Shown one piece after another: positions 1,591 to 5,166 of a DNA stretch of 5,166 bases. The stretch lies in the NCBI RefSeq assembly GCF_055900595.2, contig NZ_JBVWEU010000008.1. One strand, 5' to 3'. The notes beneath the pieces are model-generated. The model saw only the letters and a list, made by a program, of their open reading frames with translations. It was not told where the DNA came from and did not search any database. Both the position numbers and the translations under genes were made by a program. The stretch's first letter is position 1. Each line of letters starts with the position of its first letter. This DNA is from a plasmid.

Positions 1591-1989
1591 ATGCGCATCA
1601 GCAACATCGAATGGCTGAAGAAACGGATCGGATTCATCAGGAAGCTCGGAGAACAGACCGCACGACAGAGACAGATTATTGACCTGATCGACAACGAAGC
1701 CGGACTCACAGAACAGGAACGCAAACTTCTCCACGTACTGGCAACAGCGGAAAAAAACGACTTACAGGCACAGGAGAGCGAACGAAAACAGGCGGTCCAA
1801 AAACGAATCGAGGGAAAAAAACAACGACGGGAACGCAATCACCGGCTCTTTCTCGCGGCTGGGCTACTGATCGAAGCAGGACTGGTAGACACAAAAACAG
1901 GCGAGCTATGCTATAAAAAAGACAGGATATTACAGGCACTTAAGGAACTTAAGTACGATCTGGAGACATCCCCAAACCCAGACGCGTAA
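1591..1989 (+). CDS. mobC: MobC-like relaxosome accessory protein (132 aa)
   Basis: ATG at 1591 with GGGAG SD (1576-1580) 10 nt upstream; TAA at 1987-1989. Divergent from mobA across oriT, as in RSF1010. Segment KKQRRERNHRLFLAAGLLIEAGL resembles the conserved basic/hydrophobic core of RSF1010 MobC as recalled. The track ORF 1471..1989 (GTG start, no SD) is probably an artefactual N-terminal extension. Confidence 0.65.
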   Translation: MRISNIEWLKKRIGFIRKLGEQTARQRQIIDLIDNEAGLTEQERKLLHVLATAEKNDLQAQESERKQAVQKRIEGKKQRRERNHRLFLAAGLLIEAGLVDTKTGELCYKKDRILQALKELKYDLETSPNPDA

Positions 1990-2015
1990 GTGCCTCCATC
2001 CGTGTTCCGATTCCC

Positions 2016-2075
2016 TGGTGCTTCCTCGCTCATTCGCTCGCTACGCTCGGTCATGAGACTGCGGCGAGCACTACC
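2016..2075. other. ssi: Primosome assembly site (PriA-dependent ssi/pas), pBR322-like
   Basis: CTTCCTCGCTCATTCGCTCGCTACGCTCGGTCATGAGACTGCGGCGAGC is strongly similar to the ColE1/pBR322 sequence TTCCTCGCTCACTGACTCGCTGCGCTCGGTCGTTCGGCTGCGGCGAGCGG (recalled from common cloning-vector sequence), which corresponds to the n'-pas region. ColE2 plasmids are reported to carry ssi signals. Confidence 0.45.
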
Positions 2076-2139
2076 ACCACAATCACGCGGAAAGCCGCGC
2101 CATTGCAGGGCTGAACGGGGAAAAACGGCAAAAAACCTG

Positions 2140-2197
2140 CTGCTCAAAAAGACGCCAGAAAGGCGCTGTTATCTGATATAGGCTTATTTGGTCTACT
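2140..2197 (-). other. ori: ColE2-type origin of replication (Rep-binding / primer RNA site)
   Basis: Directly 3' of rep and overlapping its stop codon. The rep-sense strand reads TAGACCAAATAAGCCTATATCAGATAACAGCGCCTTTCTGGCGTCTTTTTGAGCAGC, which matches my recollection of the ColE2-P9 minimal origin (AGACCAGATAAGCC..TATCAGATAACAGCGCC..TTTGGCG). Confidence 0.6.
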
Positions 2198-3107
2198 CTA
2201 CGAGACCTCGTTTTTTCAGTTGGTAATACCAGGCGCGACTGATCCCTAATGCCTCCCACGGTTTCAGCGTGCGTGCAGATGTAGCTACTGTGCTGCGCTT
2301 AGACTTAGAACCGCCCTTGCGACCGCGTGCAGCCTGAATTTCTGGCGTGTGCGTATCAGCCACATACTGTGCGAAAGTTTCCGGCGTGAAGTTCCTGTGC
2401 GTGTATTTCGCAATGCTCTTGCCAATAGCCCGACATTCAGCCAGTGAAAGCGGAACGGGAAGCGATGCATTGTACATTTCGACACGCTGGATCACCGCTT
2501 CAAGCCACTGTGAGAACGCTGGCCAGCCCTGACGAATCGCCCTGTAAGCCCATTTGCGCGTCATTTCGAACAGGTGGCAGTTTCGCCCCATCCCGTAATG
2601 TTTATCGATGCTACGACGCTCTGAGGCGCTCAAATCGAGATAATCAGCCAGTTCATCGAGGGTATAGGCTTCCTCGCGCCACTCCATCACCAGCCATTCC
2701 AGGTGGAACGGATTTTTGCAAATCAGGCCGCTGTAGTTCACATCCGCACAAAGTTTCTCACACAGCGAACGTTCAACCGCTGCGGCATATTTCAGCGCCT
2801 TAACCGAGGCATCAGGCGCGGTTCTCACGGCGATGTTGAGTGCGTAGAGCAGGTGAGCGTGTCCGTTCACAGGATTTTTAACGGTGATGTTCGGCGCGGG
2901 AGCGTTCCGGTCGCTCCAGTCAATCGCAGCCCCCTCGCGGTCAACGTCAAAAACCAGCCAGAACTGTGCATGAGGCTGGTTCTGCTGGATATACCGTGCA
3001 AGAAGCGCGCGCCCTTTGCCGGAGATACGAAGGCCGAAAGCGAGATCATCCGTGTGATAGGGACGGTGGGGTAAATTTTCTTCGAAGTATTGAAGCGCGG
3101 CGCTCAT
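2193..3107 (-). CDS. rep: ColE2-type replication initiator Rep (primase-like, 304 aa)
   Basis: 304-aa ORF, ATG at 3107..3105 with AAGGA SD 10 nt upstream. Sequence (MSAALQYFEENLPHRPY..., FDVDREGAAIDWSDRNAPAPNITVKNPVNGHAHLLYAL, GKSIAKYTHR) matches my memory of the ColE2/ColE3 Rep family. Origin-like sequence lies immediately downstream, as in ColE2. Confidence 0.85.
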   Translation of the reverse strand: MSAALQYFEENLPHRPYHTDDLAFGLRISGKGRALLARYIQQNQPHAQFWLVFDVDREGAAIDWSDRNAPAPNITVKNPVNGHAHLLYALNIAVRTAPDASVKALKYAAAVERSLCEKLCADVNYSGLICKNPFHLEWLVMEWREEAYTLDELADYLDLSASERRSIDKHYGMGRNCHLFEMTRKWAYRAIRQGWPAFSQWLEAVIQRVEMYNASLPVPLSLAECRAIGKSIAKYTHRNFTPETFAQYVADTHTPEIQAARGRKGGSKSKRSTVATSARTLKPWEALGISRAWYYQLKKRGLVE

Positions 3108-3124
3108 GTGTTACGATTCCTTCC

Positions 3125-3203
3125 AGGTTATCGACCGACATCGCCCCTGTATTTTCGTGAAAGTCTTGGCGGATAGACACGAATTTCAGGGGCGTTTGTT
3201 TTT
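3125..3203 (+). ncRNA. Putative antisense RNA (RNAI-like) complementary to the rep mRNA leader
   Basis: Bipartite hairpin: outer stem CGCCCCTG (3142-3149) / CAGGGGCG (3187-3194), inner stem TTCGTG (3154-3159) / CACGAA (3178-3183), followed by TTTGTTTTT (3195-3203) on the + strand only. Candidate + promoter TTGAAG (3090-3095), 16-nt spacer, TGT-TACGAT (3109-3117) overlaps the rep start. The 5' end is a guess. Confidence 0.4.
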
Positions 3204-3262
3204 CAGTCGCTTACACTACCCCCAACGACAAAACCTGTCGAGCCTTCCCGCAAATCCGATCC

Positions 3263-3290
3263 ATTTACCATAACTCCCGTTGTACGTACC
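3263..3290 (-). other. cer-like XerC/XerD recombination core (multimer resolution site)
   Basis: Minus strand reads GGTACGTACAA-CGGGAG-TTATGGTAAAT. XerD arm is identical to the ColE1 cer XerD site (TTATGGTAAAT); XerC arm is 10/11 to cer GGTGCGTACAA. Central region is 6 bp. Confidence 0.65.
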
Positions 3291-3391
3291 ATGTAAAACG
3301 CCCTCAATCGCTTTCTGGCGCAAAAAACGCAAAAAGACAAGAAAACACCAGGCCAAACCAGAAAAACGCGTCAGAAACGTTTTCAGAGCGT

Positions 3392-3405
3392 TGCATAACT
3401 ATGCA
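3392..3405. promoter_or_regulatory. ARG-box-like palindrome (possible ArgR accessory site of the cer-like locus)
   Basis: TGCATA-AC-TATGCA palindrome, about 120 bp from the Xer crossover region on the XerC side, where cer carries its ArgR site. Pattern TGnAT-N4-ATnCA versus ARG-box TGAAT-N4-ATTCA. Confidence 0.3.
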
Positions 3406-3532
3406 CGAAAGCGATGTGCGATCGGTTTCGTGCGTTCTGAACACCGAACGGCTCAAAACGACAAGTTTTCTCCCCTGGTGCGTGGCGCTCTGACGGGGTT
3501 TCCTGTTTCCAAACTTCACATCTCGCCAGGAC

Positions 3533-3556
3533 AAAAAAAAACCGACCTGGGGTCGG
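3533..3556 (-). terminator. Rho-independent terminator (minus strand)
   Basis: Minus strand: CCGACC-CCA-GGTCGG followed by 9 T (seen on + as A9 then CCGACCTGGGGTCGG). Confidence 0.55.
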
Positions 3557-3691
3557 TGGCAAGAATCAGAGTCTATGGGAAATATTTTAGTTATCGGATG
3601 CTCAATATTCACAAACGCAAAAAATGCCTCAGTGATGCCCTAAAACAACCTTTCCAGAAGGAGTCCGCGCTTTACGATGCACGGAAGAGAT

Positions 3692-3713
3692 AAAAAACCC
3701 CACAAAAGTGGGG
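3692..3713 (-). terminator. Rho-independent terminator (minus strand) at the backbone/AT-rich boundary
   Basis: Minus strand: CCCCAC-TTTT-GTGGGG followed by TTTTTT. Confidence 0.5.
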
Positions 3714-3940
3714 AACCAAGAGAAACAACAATTACAGGTTGTTGGTTGTGTTCGAACAACGATGAAGTAGCTACGCTAAATAATAATTACCGTACAGGCC
3801 CTACATATTCAACACTAAATTTAAGATCCTGACGAAGGATTTATAAATGCACGAAAACACATAGACAGACAAATTCACTAAATTCATACACAAAAACAAG
3901 TGTAGTTTTCTAAGTAAATTAGATTCGACAACCAATTAGT

Positions 3941-3949
3941 TTATCCACA
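3941..3949 (+). promoter_or_regulatory. DnaA box consensus (TTATCCACA)
   Basis: Exact 9-mer TTATCCACA inside the A/C-rich tract. Only one copy seen, so function is unproven. Confidence 0.3.
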
Positions 3950-4097
3950 TCGCATTCCACTCTTGCTACACCAATCACATTTCTTGATATGTAATAGCAG
4001 AAAAAATAAAACCAGACACCAATAGACCAAAAAACAAACATTCAACAAGAAACATTTTGAACAATATCACAAAACTGTCACAACCATCATCAGACTT

Positions 4098-4126
4098 TTG
4101 AAAAAAACTGGTTGCTGTTTTATAAA
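4098..4126 (+). promoter_or_regulatory. Candidate sigma70 promoter (TTGAAA, 17-nt spacer, TATAAA)
   Basis: -35 TTGAAA at 4098-4103, 17-nt spacer, -10 TATAAA at 4121-4126. About 105 nt upstream of the + strand terminator at 4212-4236. Confidence 0.35.
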
Positions 4127-4132
4127 AGCGAC

Positions 4133-4237
4133 TGTAACAACCTCCACTCTATAGTTCCATTAGTTTAAAGTGTCACACAAACTGAGCATCCATTTGTTTT
4201 CCTTACTTTTGCCCCTGTATTCCAAGGGGTTTTTTTA
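4133..4237 (+). ncRNA. Candidate small RNA, module 1 (promoter to terminator, about 105 nt, no ORF)
   Basis: Predicted start about 7 nt after the -10 at 4121-4126. Contains ACACAAAC, then TTTTCCTTAC (4197-4206), then terminator hairpin. No ATG in the interval. Confidence 0.3.
4212..4236 (+). terminator. Rho-independent terminator (plus strand), module 1
   Basis: CCCCT (4212-4216) / AGGGG (4225-4229) stem with 8-nt loop, followed by TTTTTTT (4230-4236). Preceded by TCCTTAC at 4200-4206. Confidence 0.5.
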
Positions 4238-4467
4238 TAACTTAAAGATTAGCACACCACACAAAAACAATAAAAAAAAACGACAAGTTATACAATAAAA
4301 CCAGTACCATCCATACAGCTAATTACATATAAATACTATTAAACCATCTGGACATTAAAAATAAACTCTTATAACATAAAATTAATGCGGTTCCGGTACC
4401 ATATGTCAGGGATAATGTGCAAATGGAGGTATCGGAACTGCATTTCAGTTCATTATTAATTAATGAC

Positions 4468-4494
4468 AAAAAAAAACCTCTGCGAGCGCAGAGG
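4468..4494 (-). terminator. Rho-independent terminator (minus strand), module 3
   Basis: Minus strand: CCTCTGC-GCTC-GCAGAGG followed by 9 T (+ strand A-run 4468-4476). Preceded on the minus strand by TCCTTAC (+ coordinates 4503..4497). Confidence 0.65.
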
Positions 4495-4526
4495 GGGTAA
4501 GGAATGTTCCCGGTCATAATATGTCG
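4468..4526 (-). ncRNA. Candidate small RNA, module 3 (about 60 nt)
   Basis: Runs from the candidate minus-strand promoter (4533-4561) to the terminator at 4468-4494. Contains ATTCCTTACCCCC immediately 5' of the hairpin. Confidence 0.3.
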
Positions 4527-4532
4527 ATAGTG

Positions 4533-4561
4533 TTTATATACATACAGAACAAGAACAACAA
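4533..4561 (-). promoter_or_regulatory. Candidate sigma70 promoter on minus strand (TTGTTG, 17-nt spacer, TATAAA)
   Basis: Minus strand -35 TTGTTG (+ 4561..4556), 17-nt spacer, -10 TATAAA (+ 4538..4533). Directs transcription toward the 4468-4494 terminator. Confidence 0.35.
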
Positions 4562-4713
4562 CCAGCCAACTAATAAATATTTTATTTTTTAGAGCTGAAA
4601 CCTTAAAGCTCACTTCCATTCCATACATTGTTATAAACCTTATGTTGAAAACTGAAAGTAAGTACGGCAGACTTATTAAGTTGCGTGCAGTCTTTTCACG
4701 TTATACAAACAAG

Positions 4714-4770
4714 AACACCTGCGAAGTTATTTCTCCTTACATATCCCCCTATGCCAACGGGGGATTTTTT
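4714..4770 (+). ncRNA. Candidate small RNA, module 2 / possible leader of the 69-aa ORF
   Basis: Weak promoter TTGCGT (4681-4686), 15-nt spacer, TATACA (4702-4707). Transcript would contain TTCTCCTTAC (4731-4740), then ATAT, then the 4743-4770 hairpin and T-run. Start is uncertain. Confidence 0.25.
4743..4770 (+). terminator. Rho-independent terminator (plus strand), module 2
   Basis: ATCCCCC (4743-4749) / GGGGGAT (4759-4765) stem with 9-nt loop, followed by T-run to 4770. Preceded by TCCTTAC at 4734-4740. Confidence 0.6.
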
Positions 4771-4842
4771 CTGGTTCACTAACGCATAAATAATAGTGAC
4801 ACCCTATCATTCACAAACCGTGATAATATAAGGATTATCATC

Positions 4843-5052
4843 ATGGCAAAATTAGGTGAAAACACCCCACATATTATCGATGCTACTGTAGATTTTATGG
4901 CATCAAGCCAGGCATTTCGTGAGTATCTGAAAAAACTTCCCCCTGATAACACAATACCGCCAGCTCTTACTGATGAGCACGTACCGTTATATATACGAAG
5001 GCTGGAATACTATCGTCTGCTTTATCGACCAAAGCAGACAGAATCATATTGA
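4843..5052 (+). CDS. Hypothetical small protein (69 aa), not recognised
   Basis: ATG at 4843 with AAGGA SD (4830-4834) 8 nt upstream; TGA at 5050-5052. Balanced codon usage, hydrophilic, no transmembrane segment. I do not recognise the family ([18 protein letters not shown]...). Competes with a minus-strand frame that is open from the window end to a TAA near 4966. Confidence 0.45.
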
Positions 5053-5166
5053 AAAAAACGGTGAACGGTTCGCGAAATCCTTTCGCGGGTCGTGAGGCGT
5101 TGGACAAGCGAAGCGCGTCAGTTTTTCCGGCTCTTCCCCGTGACAGGTTTCTCCACCAGTTTATCT

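What the first reader, a model, noticed from the sequence alone, without database searches (positions are those of the whole stretch)
3715..5052. AT-rich, terminator-dense accessory segment with almost no coding capacity between cer/rep and the mob module
Composition changes abruptly at about 3715, just after the minus-strand terminator at 3692-3713, and returns to backbone-like GC content after about 5052. In roughly 1.3 kb there are five terminator-like hairpins on both strands and only one ORF of 60 aa or more with a credible RBS. That is unusual for plasmid cargo, which normally encodes proteins, and points to an RNA-based or DNA-site-based function, or a degraded remnant.
Basis: partly seen in the sequence, partly recalled or inferred. 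Interest (0 to 1): 0.5.

Follow-up and report, generated by a model that had tools for sequence, protein, structure and literature searches.

The report
Small-RNA gene cluster on cryptic plasmid
The AT-rich stretch of this very common small E. coli plasmid encodes no conserved protein apart from a 69-residue YibT-like one, and instead looks like four or five short terminator-ended RNA genes of unknown function, which have not been tested experimentally.

Summary
GC falls from 0.50-0.55 to 0.30-0.38 over about 3715-4900. Terminator-like hairpins number 5 in 3690-5060, against 0.9±0.9 in shuffles. The only ORF that keeps its frame in relatives is the 69-aa YibT paralogue (4843-5052).

The window is the roughly 5.17-kb ColE2-type ("Col156") cryptic plasmid, pJJ1886_2-like. 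About 5% of complete E. coli genomes carry it.

The segment is not a colicin remnant and shows no protein-family trace in any frame.

Four diverged lineages show islands of conservation separated by hypervariable spacers. Each island pairs promoter-like hexamers with a terminator on the same strand. Two hairpins keep pairing through G·U wobbles and compensatory changes that work only on the strand their terminator or promoter implies.

The 7-mer TCCTTAC occurs three times in the window. Each copy sits 0-6 nt upstream of a terminator stem on the transcribed strand. Units B and E are paralogous.

Best reading: a cluster of plasmid-borne small regulatory RNAs with CU-rich, anti-Shine-Dalgarno-like seeds, plus a yibT-like gene behind a leader and attenuator. 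No expression data or targets exist. IS1 and blaOXA-48 insertions show the segment is dispensable for replication. Interest is moderate.

The parts
3692..3777 (-). Unit A: candidate small RNA of about 85 nt. It has two small hairpins, a single-stranded UUUCUCUUGG stretch, a terminator stem at 3713-3698 and a U-tail (A-run 3692-3697 on the + strand).
   Evidence: The terminator was found by the scan. The 3' 90 nt are conserved at 75-100% against large-plasmid homologues, while neighbouring DNA is 30-50%. The consensus fold on the minus strand keeps one pair by an AU to GC compensatory change and two by U·G wobbles, which would be mismatches on the + strand. The 5' end is inferred only.
3784..3812 (-). 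Promoter-like site for unit A: TTGAAT (3812-3807), 17 nt, TAATTA (3789-3784). In the large-plasmid lineage it reads TTGAAA-17-TAAATT.
   Evidence: Read from alignment A1. The -10 hexamer is weak and the consensus scanner did not call the site. Inferred.
3830..4058 (.). Hypervariable AT-rich spacer with no conserved ORF. It is unalignable in the Koxy-type lineage.
   Evidence: There are 12-16 variable columns per 50 nt among lineages that are 92-100% identical elsewhere. Identity to the large-plasmid lineage is 30-65%. ORFs here have no counterparts in relatives.
4059..4073 (.). Short conserved motif GA..A..ATCACAAA, overlapping a minus-strand promoter-like site (GTGACA-16-CAAAAT, 4081-4054).
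   Evidence: The motif is invariant in three lineages in alignment A2. The promoter-like site comes from the scan. Its function is unknown.
4098..4155 (+). Promoter-like elements for unit B: TTGAAA (4098-4103), 17 nt, TATAAA (4121-4126). A second -10-like box TATAGT lies at 4150-4155 and reads TATA.T in all lineages.
   Evidence: Read from alignments A2 and block B. The spacer sequence diverges while the hexamers are kept. The scanner did not call the site. Inferred.
4133..4236 (+). Unit B: candidate small RNA of about 75-105 nt. It has a small 5' hairpin, a conserved single-stranded stretch GAGCAU.CAUUUGUUUUCCUUAC (TCCTTAC at 4200-4206), a terminator stem at 4212-4229 and seven U (4230-4236).
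   Evidence: This is the best conserved island in all lineages. The terminator is retained with changes in the loop and stem base. The ORF crossing it (4170-4298) is frameshifted in relatives. The 3' module is paralogous to that of unit E.
4349..4377 (+). Promoter-like site for unit C: TGGACA, 17 nt, TAACAT.
   Evidence: The consensus scan called it. Both hexamers and the 17-nt spacing are identical in the window and large-plasmid lineages, while 9 of 17 spacer bases differ.
4384..4444 (+). Unit C: a 17-bp hairpin (arms 4384-4400 and 4428-4444) with a conserved 27-nt loop. The 3' end of the transcript is unknown.
   Evidence: RNA fold of 4384-4500 gives -44 kcal/mol, z = -6.5, with 0 of 200 shuffles as stable. 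On 10 distinct sequences 94.9% of cells pair. One pair changes AU to GC, and all 17 cells with a one-sided change are G·U on the + strand. A diverged second copy lies in pCFSAN004181P.
4435..4451 (+). Weak terminator-like hairpin that overlaps the 3' arm of hairpin C.
   Evidence: Found by the scan. It is deleted in two large-plasmid lineages, so it is probably not functional or not essential.
4468..4526 (-). Unit D: candidate short RNA of about 58 nt, convergent with unit C. UUCCUUAC (GTAAGGA at 4497-4503 on the + strand) abuts the terminator stem 4494-4477, followed by nine U.
   Evidence: It is the strongest terminator in the scan. GGGGTAAGGAAT is near-invariant across 10 sequences. The hairpin is kept in all lineages.
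4533..4561 (-). Promoter-like site for unit D: TTGTTG (4561-4556), 17 nt, TATAAA (4538-4533). The large-plasmid lineage reads TTGAAA-17-TATAAA.
   Evidence: TTTATATACA (4533-4542) is invariant in alignment A3. The scanner did not call the site. Inferred.
4592..4611 (.). Conserved palindrome GAGCT-N10-AGCTC.
   Evidence: It is invariant in 7 of 8 lineages of alignment A3. Its function is unknown.
4681..4770 (+). Unit E: promoter-like TTGCGT (4681-4686), 15 nt, TATACA (4702-4707). The transcript would run from about 4714 with CUGCGAAGUUAUUUCUCCUUAC (TCCTTAC at 4734-4740), a terminator stem at 4746-4763 and a U-tail to 4770. It could act as a short RNA and as the leader/attenuator of the yibT-like gene.
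   Evidence: The block is conserved in every lineage. In other contigs it stands alone, with homology starting right at the -35 box. Its 3' module aligns with that of unit B at score 33, against a shuffle maximum of 28. The 46-aa ORF 4642-4782 loses its ATG or gains a stop in relatives. The terminator has decayed in the large-plasmid lineage.
4843..5052 (+). yibT-like gene, 69 aa, with AAGGA at 4830-4834 as ribosome-binding site.
   Evidence: RefSeq annotates it as a hypothetical protein, and one record names it yibT. It is 72% identical to chromosomal YibT. It is conserved at 91-98% aa identity in related plasmids. There is no Pfam, NCBIfam or PDB match. The predicted three-helix fold has pLDDT 71 and no structural match.

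Best explanation
Window 3.67-4.82 kb is a non-coding, horizontally moving AT-rich module. It carries four or five short transcription units, each with its own terminator, and is followed by a gene for a YibT-paralogue small protein.

Two units read leftward: A (about 3777 to 3692) and D (about 4526 to 4468). Three read rightward: B (about 4133 to 4236), C (from about 4384, a 17-bp hairpin) and E (about 4714 to 4770).

B, D and E share one 3' design, and A has a variant of it. The design is a single-stranded pyrimidine-rich stretch containing UCCUUAC (UCUCUUGG in A), placed 0-6 nt before a terminator hairpin that starts with CCCC, then a run of 6-9 U. This is the layout of Hfq-type base-pairing small RNAs. 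UCCUUA also matches the last six bases of 16S rRNA.

The most likely mechanism is that these are plasmid-borne regulatory small RNAs. Their CU-rich stretch would pair with Shine-Dalgarno regions (GUAAGGA-like) of host or co-resident-plasmid mRNAs and change their translation or stability. Unit E would also act as leader and attenuator of the yibT-like gene.

Shown: the composition, the excess of terminators, the absence of conserved ORFs, the island pattern of conservation, strand-specific pairing in two hairpins, the shared motif, and the B/E paralogy.

Inferred: transcription itself, the 5' ends, Hfq dependence, action in trans, and the targets.
For: - Terminator-like sites: 5 in the segment against 0.9±0.9 in shuffles, with no excess elsewhere on the plasmid.
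- No ORF in 3715-4842 keeps its frame in four other lineages. Six-frame translation matches no NCBIfam family.
- Conservation is patchy in the same places in independent comparisons. Islands A, B, C-D and E are 75-100% identical while spacers are 30-55%. Spearman rho is 0.33-0.42, p = 0.014-0.001.
- For unit C the promoter-like hexamers are invariant while 9 of 17 spacer bases differ at constant spacing. The 2.4-kb arsR/oxidoreductase cargo in the Koxy-type lineage lies between units B and C, not inside them.
- Hairpin C folds with z = -6.5. On 10 distinct sequences 94.9% of cells pair, one pair changes AU to GC, and all 17 one-sided changes are G·U on the + strand only.
- The hairpins of unit A show an AU to GC change and U·G wobbles valid only on the minus strand, which is the strand of its terminator.
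- TCCTTAC occurs exactly 3 times in 2 x 5166 positions. Each copy lies 0-6 nt upstream of a terminator stem on the transcribed strand. Random windows from the segment share a 7-mer this way in fewer than 1 in 1000 trials.
- The 3' modules of B and E align at score 33, against a shuffle maximum of 28.
- The non-coding part is at least 99% identical in most carriers. 299 of 5426 complete E. coli genomes hold at least 80% of it.
- There is precedent for plasmid-borne sRNAs: pNDM-HK (PMC5880898) and a small-plasmid RNA with 73 Hfq-mediated partners in EPEC (PMC8550237).
Against: - I found no expression data for this plasmid. All promoters are consensus-level, and only that of unit C passes the scanner. 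Promoter-like sites as a class are not enriched: 5 against 5.3±2.4.
- There is no Rfam match in the segment.
- No translation-initiation region on the plasmid pairs with any candidate seed better than shuffled seeds do (z between -1.2 and +1.6). Host targets could not be searched.
- Covariation is thin: three compensatory pairs in total, from few and related lineages.
- In the large plasmids the module sits among IS debris. Unit E has lost its terminator there, one copy is truncated by a Tn3-family element, and L007 has lost the motif in unit B.
- IS1 sits in the hairpin C loop of one viable plasmid.
- A six-base anti-SD-like motif might reflect common descent of the terminators rather than function.
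Confidence: 0.45

Rival explanations
1. The right-hand half (about 4349-4842) is one long cis-acting control region for the yibT-like gene. In this reading a roughly 460-nt leader starts at the unit C promoter, unit D is its antisense RNA, and the 4746-4763 terminator is an attenuator. Units A and B would be separate or irrelevant. No RNA acts in trans.
For: No convincing promoter lies between the 4746-4763 terminator and the ORF. The only scanner hit overlaps the ribosome-binding site, so read-through from upstream is likely. C and D are convergent and would overlap. The Koxy-type plasmids keep 4378-5166 as one block at about 88% identity next to the mob genes.
Against: The large-plasmid lineages keep blocks C, D and E but have no yibT-like gene. 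There, E leads into a different 420-nt leader and an 18-aa ORF. Pairing of D with the hairpin C loop is no better than shuffled sequence and shows no lineage-matched preference. The Koxy-type junction removes the unit C promoter yet keeps the hairpin.
Confidence: 0.15
2. The segment is functionless hitch-hiking DNA. It would be a decaying piece of AT-rich virulence-plasmid sequence that a small plasmid captured, kept only because the plasmid lineage is young and clonal.
For: Homologues at about 70% identity lie in IncF ETEC/STEC plasmids among IS fragments. They sit near sta1 and a fragment of an EspK/GogB-like effector gene. The 3830-4058 part is hypervariable. IS1 and blaOXA-48 insertions are tolerated. 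More than 240 plasmid records are at least 99% identical, so within-lineage conservation says little.
Against: Divergence is strongly non-uniform, and the same islands are kept in independent lineage comparisons. Terminator hairpins and promoter hexamers persist while flanking bases change. Wobble and compensatory changes are strand-specific. The repeated TCCTTAC-terminator arrangement is far from chance. No protein remnant is detectable.
Confidence: 0.2
3. The conserved islands act as DNA or single-stranded DNA sites rather than as RNA genes. Hairpin C would be a single-strand initiation (priming) site on the transferred or lagging strand. The terminators would simply insulate rep and mob from stray transcription out of promoter-rich AT-rich DNA.
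For: If the relaxase gene enters last, as is usual for MOBQ plasmids (general knowledge, not tested here), the + strand is the transferred strand. The evidence for hairpin C is specific to the + strand. G·T pairs are tolerated in DNA hairpins. The terminators face both ways at the edges of the segment.
Against: Insulation does not explain the conserved single-stranded sequences or the shared TCCTTAC motif. The structure of unit A is specific to the minus strand. Hairpin C is interrupted by IS1 in a circulating plasmid. No similarity to any known ssi family could be shown. The loop is more conserved than the stem.
Confidence: 0.1
4. The segment holds a type I toxin-antitoxin locus: a small hydrophobic peptide controlled by an antisense RNA.
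For: The minus strand is T-rich and offers hydrophobic mini-ORFs, for example the 40-aa ORF 3919-4041. C and D form a convergent, antisense-like pair.
Against: None of the small ORFs is conserved in frame, length or start codon in any other lineage. Their hydrophobicity follows from base composition. No Sok, Sib, IstR or similar Rfam family matches. Mini-ORFs next to the conserved TAAGGA boxes vary from 0 to 9 codons or more.
Confidence: 0.03

Closest known systems
Hfq-type base-pairing small RNAs whose CU-rich anti-Shine-Dalgarno seed lies just before the terminator (for example ChiX/MicM of E. coli; recalled from general knowledge, not tested here)
   Same: Length is 55-105 nt. Each unit has a small 5' hairpin, then a single-stranded conserved pyrimidine-rich stretch, a GC-rich terminator hairpin and a tail of 6-9 U. 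There is no ORF. The conserved stretch is complementary to a ribosome-binding-site-like sequence (GUAAGGA).
   Different: There is no sequence or Rfam relationship. Expression, Hfq binding and targets are unknown. Several related units are clustered on a high-copy mobilisable plasmid rather than being single chromosomal genes.
Plasmid-borne regulatory sRNAs described by RNA-seq or RIL-seq (pNDM-HK sRNAs, PMC5880898; the p5217 RNA with 73 Hfq-mediated partners in EPEC, PMC8550237)
   Same: Small non-coding transcripts encoded on plasmids and proposed to act on host genes.
   Different: The replicons are different. p5217 is described as rop-encoding, that is ColE1-type (PMC3486847), and its sequence could not be fetched. 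Those RNAs were detected experimentally. The ones here are predictions.
ColE2-type colicin plasmids (pColE8 NC_012882; a ColE2 plasmid NZ_CP110200)
   Same: They share the same Rep, ori, rep leader and cer-side backbone (window 1974-3475 at 89-93% identity). Their cargo sits at the same junction, next to 3475.
   Different: Their cargo is an SOS-regulated colicin-immunity-lysis operon. Here there is no similarity to it at DNA or protein level and no LexA box. The mob module also differs.
Type I toxin-antitoxin loci (hok/sok, ibs/sib and the like)
   Same: AT-rich DNA, short convergent transcripts, strong terminators and small hydrophobic reading frames.
   Different: No conserved toxin ORF and no match to the known antitoxin RNA families.
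YibT, a 69-aa protein of unknown function encoded on the E. coli chromosome
   Same: The ORF 4843-5052 has the same length, 72% identity and 20 invariant columns across 15 homologues.
   Different: This copy is plasmid-borne and lies behind an unrelated AT-rich leader. Only the ORF itself matches the chromosome, at about 77% DNA identity (H99).

Membership tests
Hfq-type trans-acting small RNA | Intrinsic terminator with a long U-tail at the 3' end | tested here: met
   Units A, B, D and E end in GC-rich stems followed by 6-9 U. The hairpins are kept across lineages, except that unit E has lost its terminator in the large-plasmid lineage.
Hfq-type trans-acting small RNA | Own promoter giving a short discrete transcript | tested here: inconclusive
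   Promoter-like hexamers at a fixed distance are conserved while their spacers diverge. Only the unit C promoter passes the consensus scan, and promoter-like sites are not enriched. No transcript data exist.
Hfq-type trans-acting small RNA | Non-coding: no conserved reading frame | tested here: met
   Reading frames are broken in relatives. There are no family hits in six frames.
Hfq-type trans-acting small RNA | Conserved single-stranded seed complementary to a target mRNA | tested here: inconclusive
   Conserved unpaired stretches containing UCCUUAC exist. No plasmid gene start pairs better than with shuffled seeds. Host mRNAs could not be scanned.
Hfq-type trans-acting small RNA | Binding to Hfq (or ProQ) and a regulatory effect in vivo | not testable with these tools
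   This needs co-immunoprecipitation or RIL-seq, plus genetics.
Colicin operon (or its remnant) of ColE2-type plasmids | Homology to colicin, immunity or lysis genes | tested here: not met
   blastn against pColE8 and a ColE2 plasmid finds only 1974-3475. tblastn of ColE2 colicin, immunity and lysis proteins finds nothing in the segment. NCBIfam on six frames is empty.
Colicin operon (or its remnant) of ColE2-type plasmids | SOS (LexA) box at the promoter | tested here: not met
   CTGT-N8-ACAG with up to 1 mismatch has no hit in 3476-5060. The unit D promoter region does not align with the ColE2 colicin promoter.
Type I toxin-antitoxin | Conserved small toxin ORF with a ribosome-binding site | tested here: not met
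   No small ORF is conserved across lineages.
Type I toxin-antitoxin | Antisense RNA of a known family | tested here: not met
   Rfam at E<=1 gives nothing in the segment and nothing in four related loci.
Single-strand initiation (ssi) / primosome assembly site | Stable hairpin on the strand that becomes single-stranded | tested here: inconclusive
   Hairpin C is stable and specific to the + strand. Which strand is transferred or lagging was not determined, and no ssi reference sequences were available.
YibT protein family | Full-length sequence similarity to E. coli YibT | tested here: met
   72% identity over 99% of the length to a protein named YibT, E = 5e-23. The alignment has 20 invariant columns.

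The most novel reading that the evidence does not exclude
A family of related plasmid-borne small RNAs carries a 16S-rRNA-like anti-Shine-Dalgarno motif (UCCUUAC) and is expressed from a multicopy cryptic plasmid. These RNAs would retune translation of a set of host or helper-plasmid mRNAs. That would be the long-sought benefit explaining why this 'cryptic' plasmid is kept in about 5% of sequenced E. coli, including the pandemic ST131 lineage.
Probability: 0.15. Interest if true: 0.7.

Novelty: new member of a known kind. Interest (0 to 1): 0.45.

Why it matters
Small "cryptic" Col-type plasmids are among the commonest replicons in clinical E. coli. 299 of 5426 complete genomes carry this non-coding module. 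Yet there is "no clue" to what cryptic MOBQ4 plasmids give the host (PMC6856555).

If the cargo of this plasmid is a set of regulatory RNAs plus a YibT-like protein, three things follow:
- It gives a concrete, testable reason for the plasmid's persistence.
- It adds new sRNA families to the accessory genome of ST131.
- It shows that standard annotation, which finds five CDS and nothing in 1.1 kb, misses the plasmid's main cargo.

The backbone also matters in practice, because derivatives have picked up blaOXA-48. If the units prove silent, the segment is simply tolerated AT-rich baggage, and the finding is ordinary.

Tried and rejected
1. Colicin remnant: rejected.
2. Remnant of any known protein family: six frames against NCBIfam gave nothing. 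Pfam and NCBIfam on individual ORFs gave nothing. tblastn with the neighbouring EspK/GogB-like effector fragment gave nothing.
3. Known RNA families: Rfam at E<=1 gave only a weak PK-repBA hit in the rep leader, outside the segment. Related loci gave nothing.
4. Type I toxin-antitoxin: no conserved small ORF.
5. Kissing interaction between unit D RNA and the hairpin C loop: duplex energies are no better than shuffled sequence and show no preference for the matching lineage.
6. Self-regulation of plasmid genes (rep, mobA, the 133-aa ORF, the 177-aa ORF, yibT-like) by the candidate seeds: z between -1.2 and +1.6.
7. Terminal inverted or direct repeats that would mark a transposable unit: none of note.
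8. Phage origin: no match in 50,697 phage records. Viral-contig pattern hits were unrelated coding sequence.
Only a contaminant contig and one Koxy-type plasmid were real.
10. The short 'plasmids' of 1.6-4.2 kb that seemed to consist mostly of the segment are linear, incomplete assemblies.
11. Lead p5217 (a small EPEC plasmid RNA with 73 RIL-seq partners): it is described as a rop-encoding plasmid, so probably unrelated. Its sequence was not retrievable.
12. YibT-like fold: a three-helix model with pLDDT 71 and no PDB match.
Full report
IDENTITY OF THE WINDOW. The 5166 bases are a complete small plasmid of the pJJ1886_2 type (NC_022649, 5167 bp). The segment 3715-5052 is at least 99% identical in 241 PLSDB records, mostly E. 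coli with some Klebsiella and Shigella. Its non-coding part (3715-4842) is present at 80% coverage or more in 299 of 5426 complete E. coli genomes, almost always on plasmids. The backbone is ColE2-like: a Rep gene on the minus strand (2193-3107) with a ColE2-type origin just downstream of it (sequence read directly, about 2155-2190). There is a MobA/MobL relaxase (488-1414, minus). RefSeq annotates five CDS in all, and only one lies inside the finding, the 69-aa ORF 4843-5052.

OBSERVATION CHECK. GC is 0.50-0.58 up to about 3500, then 0.44 at 3501-3700. It is 0.30-0.38 from 3701 to 4900 and 0.455 at 4901-5100. Terminator-like hairpins number 5 in 3690-5060, against 0.9±0.9 in shuffles. The rest of the plasmid shows no excess, with 6 against 5.1±2.0. 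Two ORFs of 60 aa or more exist, and only the 69-aa one survives comparison with relatives. So the description is correct and exceeds chance. The boundaries need adjusting. ColE2 and ColE8 colicin plasmids share only 1974-3475 with the window, so the slot that holds their colicin operon begins at about 3476. The piece shared with other plasmid lineages runs from about 3668 to 4801-4819.

RELATIVES. Four further lineages were found.
- A variant 91-94% identical over the whole region, seen in metagenome contigs (L136, L139, L164, L167, L189).
- A "Koxy-type" group of 6.4-7.5-kb plasmids. It keeps 3689-3726, keeps 4150-4295 at 77% identity and keeps 4378-5166 at about 88%. It carries a 2.4-kb arsR plus FAD-dependent oxidoreductase insert exactly between 4296 and 4377.
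- Large IncFIA/FIB ETEC/STEC plasmids with 68-75% identity over 3671-3900 and 4058-4801. These stretches are unannotated, lie among IS fragments and sit near sta1. One of them holds a second, truncated copy.
- Contigs that carry only the right half of block E (4674-4801). It is followed by about 420 nt of conserved non-coding sequence, a conserved 17-19-codon ORF and a convergent fragment of an EspK/GogB-like effector gene.

Nothing related occurs in phage records, on E. coli chromosomes or in the per-species genome set beyond a contaminant and one Koxy-type plasmid.

CODING POTENTIAL. Every ORF of 15 codons or more in 3690-4850 was compared with the relatives. None keeps start, frame and stop. 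The 101-aa ORF has stops in all other lineages. The 46-aa ORF 4642-4782 loses its ATG in one lineage and gains a stop in another. Six-frame translations of 3476-4860 match no NCBIfam model. Colicin, immunity, lysis and effector proteins find nothing by tblastn. There is no LexA box. The segment is therefore not a recognisable decayed operon.

ISLANDS OF CONSERVATION. Divergence is very uneven, and it is uneven in the same places in independent comparisons (rho 0.33-0.42, p 0.014-0.001). Conserved islands are 3690-3800 (A), 4110-4240 (B), 4345-4545 (C and D), 4592-4611 and 4655-4800 (E). Spacers at 3830-4058 and 4260-4310 are hypervariable. Each island couples promoter-like hexamers with a terminator on the same strand. 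For unit C, TGGACA and TAACAT are identical between lineages at a constant 17-nt spacing, while 9 of 17 spacer bases differ. The Koxy-type cargo and the junctions of the stand-alone E block fall between units. The stand-alone E homology begins right at its -35 box.

RNA-LEVEL SIGNALS. Hairpin C (4384-4400 paired with 4428-4444) is exceptionally stable, with z = -6.5. Across 10 distinct sequences 94.9% of cells pair. One pair switches AU to GC, and all 17 one-sided changes give G·U on the + strand. On the other strand those would be A·C mismatches. Unit A, folded on the minus strand, keeps one pair by an AU to GC change and two by U·G wobbles. In both cases the favoured strand is the one expected from the neighbouring promoter or terminator. 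This argues for selection on a single-stranded nucleic acid, most simply RNA. The number of independent events is small, so this is suggestive rather than conclusive.

A SHARED 3' MODULE. The 7-mer TCCTTAC occurs three times in the whole plasmid counting both strands: 4200(+), 4734(+) and 4497(-). Each time it lies 0-6 nt upstream of a terminator stem that begins with CCCC, on the transcribed strand. Unit A has TCTCTTGG in the same place. Four random 16-nt windows from the segment share a 7-mer three ways in fewer than 1 in 1000 trials. The 3' parts of B and E align significantly, at 33 against a shuffle maximum of 28, so at least these two are paralogues. The motif equals the 3'-terminal UCCUUA of 16S rRNA (general knowledge) and is complementary to GUAAGGA, a strong Shine-Dalgarno context. 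A U-rich single strand, then a hairpin, then a long U-tail is the classical Hfq-binding module (general knowledge).

WHAT THE SEGMENT IS NOT NEEDED FOR. One circulating plasmid has IS1 inside the loop of hairpin C, with a target duplication at 4413-4421. The 7872-bp derivatives carry an IS1-flanked blaOXA-48 unit inside the yibT-like ORF at 4875-4883. Replication and maintenance therefore do not depend on these parts, as expected for cargo.

THE ONE GENE. ORF 4843-5052 is a paralogue of the chromosomal small protein YibT, at 72% identity. No domain, solved structure or fold match is known. No good promoter lies between the 4746-4763 terminator and the ORF. It is therefore probably transcribed by read-through from unit E, which would then act as leader and attenuator.

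NEGATIVE TESTS OF MECHANISM. Pairing of unit D RNA with the hairpin C loop is no better than chance and does not co-vary by lineage. None of the five plasmid gene starts is a better partner for the candidate seeds than for shuffled seeds. Targets, if any, must lie on the chromosome or on other plasmids, and these could not be scanned here. Rfam has no family for any unit. No paper found in the searched library describes this region.

VERDICT. The best-supported reading is a compact cluster of four or five small RNA genes, partly paralogous, with CU-rich anti-SD-like seeds next to strong terminators, plus a yibT-like gene behind a leader (confidence about 0.45). The rivals are:
- a purely cis-acting control region for the yibT-like gene (0.15);
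- tolerated, decaying AT-rich baggage from virulence plasmids (0.2);
- DNA or single-stranded DNA sites such as a priming signal, plus insulating terminators (0.1);
- a type I toxin-antitoxin locus (0.03, essentially refuted).

As a kind of thing, plasmid-borne sRNAs are known (PMC5880898, PMC8550237). These particular units match no described family, so I rate them as new members of a known kind. Interest is moderate. The plasmid is very common and its benefit is unexplained, but nothing here is shown experimentally.

Noticed in passing
L194 (NZ_CP195349.1, 7872 bp); insertion at window 4875-4883: Derivatives of this cryptic plasmid carry an IS1-flanked blaOXA-48 unit inserted in the yibT-like ORF. 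The backbone is therefore already a carbapenemase vehicle. Several 7872-bp records exist.
   Followed up: partly
L195 (NZ_CP145145.1, 5944 bp); window 4413-4421: IS1 is inserted in the loop of hairpin C with a 9-bp target duplication. In metagenome contig L178 a Tn3-family transposase gene abuts and truncates the same hairpin. The loop may be an insertion hot spot.
   Followed up: partly
L004, L005, L006 (Koxy-type plasmids); between window 4296 and 4377: Related 6.4-7.5-kb plasmids carry an ArsR/SmtB regulator and a 552-aa FAD-dependent oxidoreductase as cargo, exactly between units B and C. One record also has a rhodanese-domain CDS.
   Followed up: no
L003, L007, L156, L178, L182, L185, L186; about 420 nt downstream of the block E homologue: A conserved 17-19-codon ORF, MI(S/F)FSG..FIKN.C.C.Y, has a strong GAGGAG ribosome-binding site at the end of a long conserved leader. 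It lies upstream of a convergent effector-like gene fragment. It could be a small protein or a leader peptide.
   Followed up: partly
L178 10661-11296 (+); L186 1000-1677: An AT-rich ORF or pseudogene weakly matches the EspK/GogB type III effector family (NCBIfam E = 6.5e-9, far below the cut-off). It lies next to the homologous non-coding module.
   Followed up: partly
L008 2870-3250 (pCFSAN004181P): A second, diverged and truncated copy of the module, running from the unit B terminator remnant through C-D to the start of E, lies in the same large plasmid next to a LysR gene and an IS91 fragment.
   Followed up: partly
window 3072-3195 (-): There is a weak Rfam hit to PK-repBA (26 bits, E = 0.011, below the gathering score) over the rep leader. 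This presumably reflects the ColE2-type structured rep leader that is the target of the antisense copy-control RNA.
   Followed up: no
window 3211-3460: The cer-side backbone region varies more between the 92-100% lineages (6-9 variable columns per 50 nt) than rep or most of the AT-rich islands do.
   Followed up: no
L040 (NZ_WMZH01000013.1, 'Streptococcus parasanguinis' scaffold, 1247 bp): This scaffold is 99.6% identical to window 3601-4755. It is almost certainly E. coli plasmid contamination in a Streptococcus assembly.
   Followed up: no
window 4402-4420 and 4511-4526 (+): A GTCAGG.ATAAT.TGT-like motif occurs twice as a direct repeat: in the hairpin C loop and in the 5' region of unit D. 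Each lineage has its own spelling of it. The RNA-RNA pairing idea failed, so a protein-binding site remains possible.
   Followed up: partly
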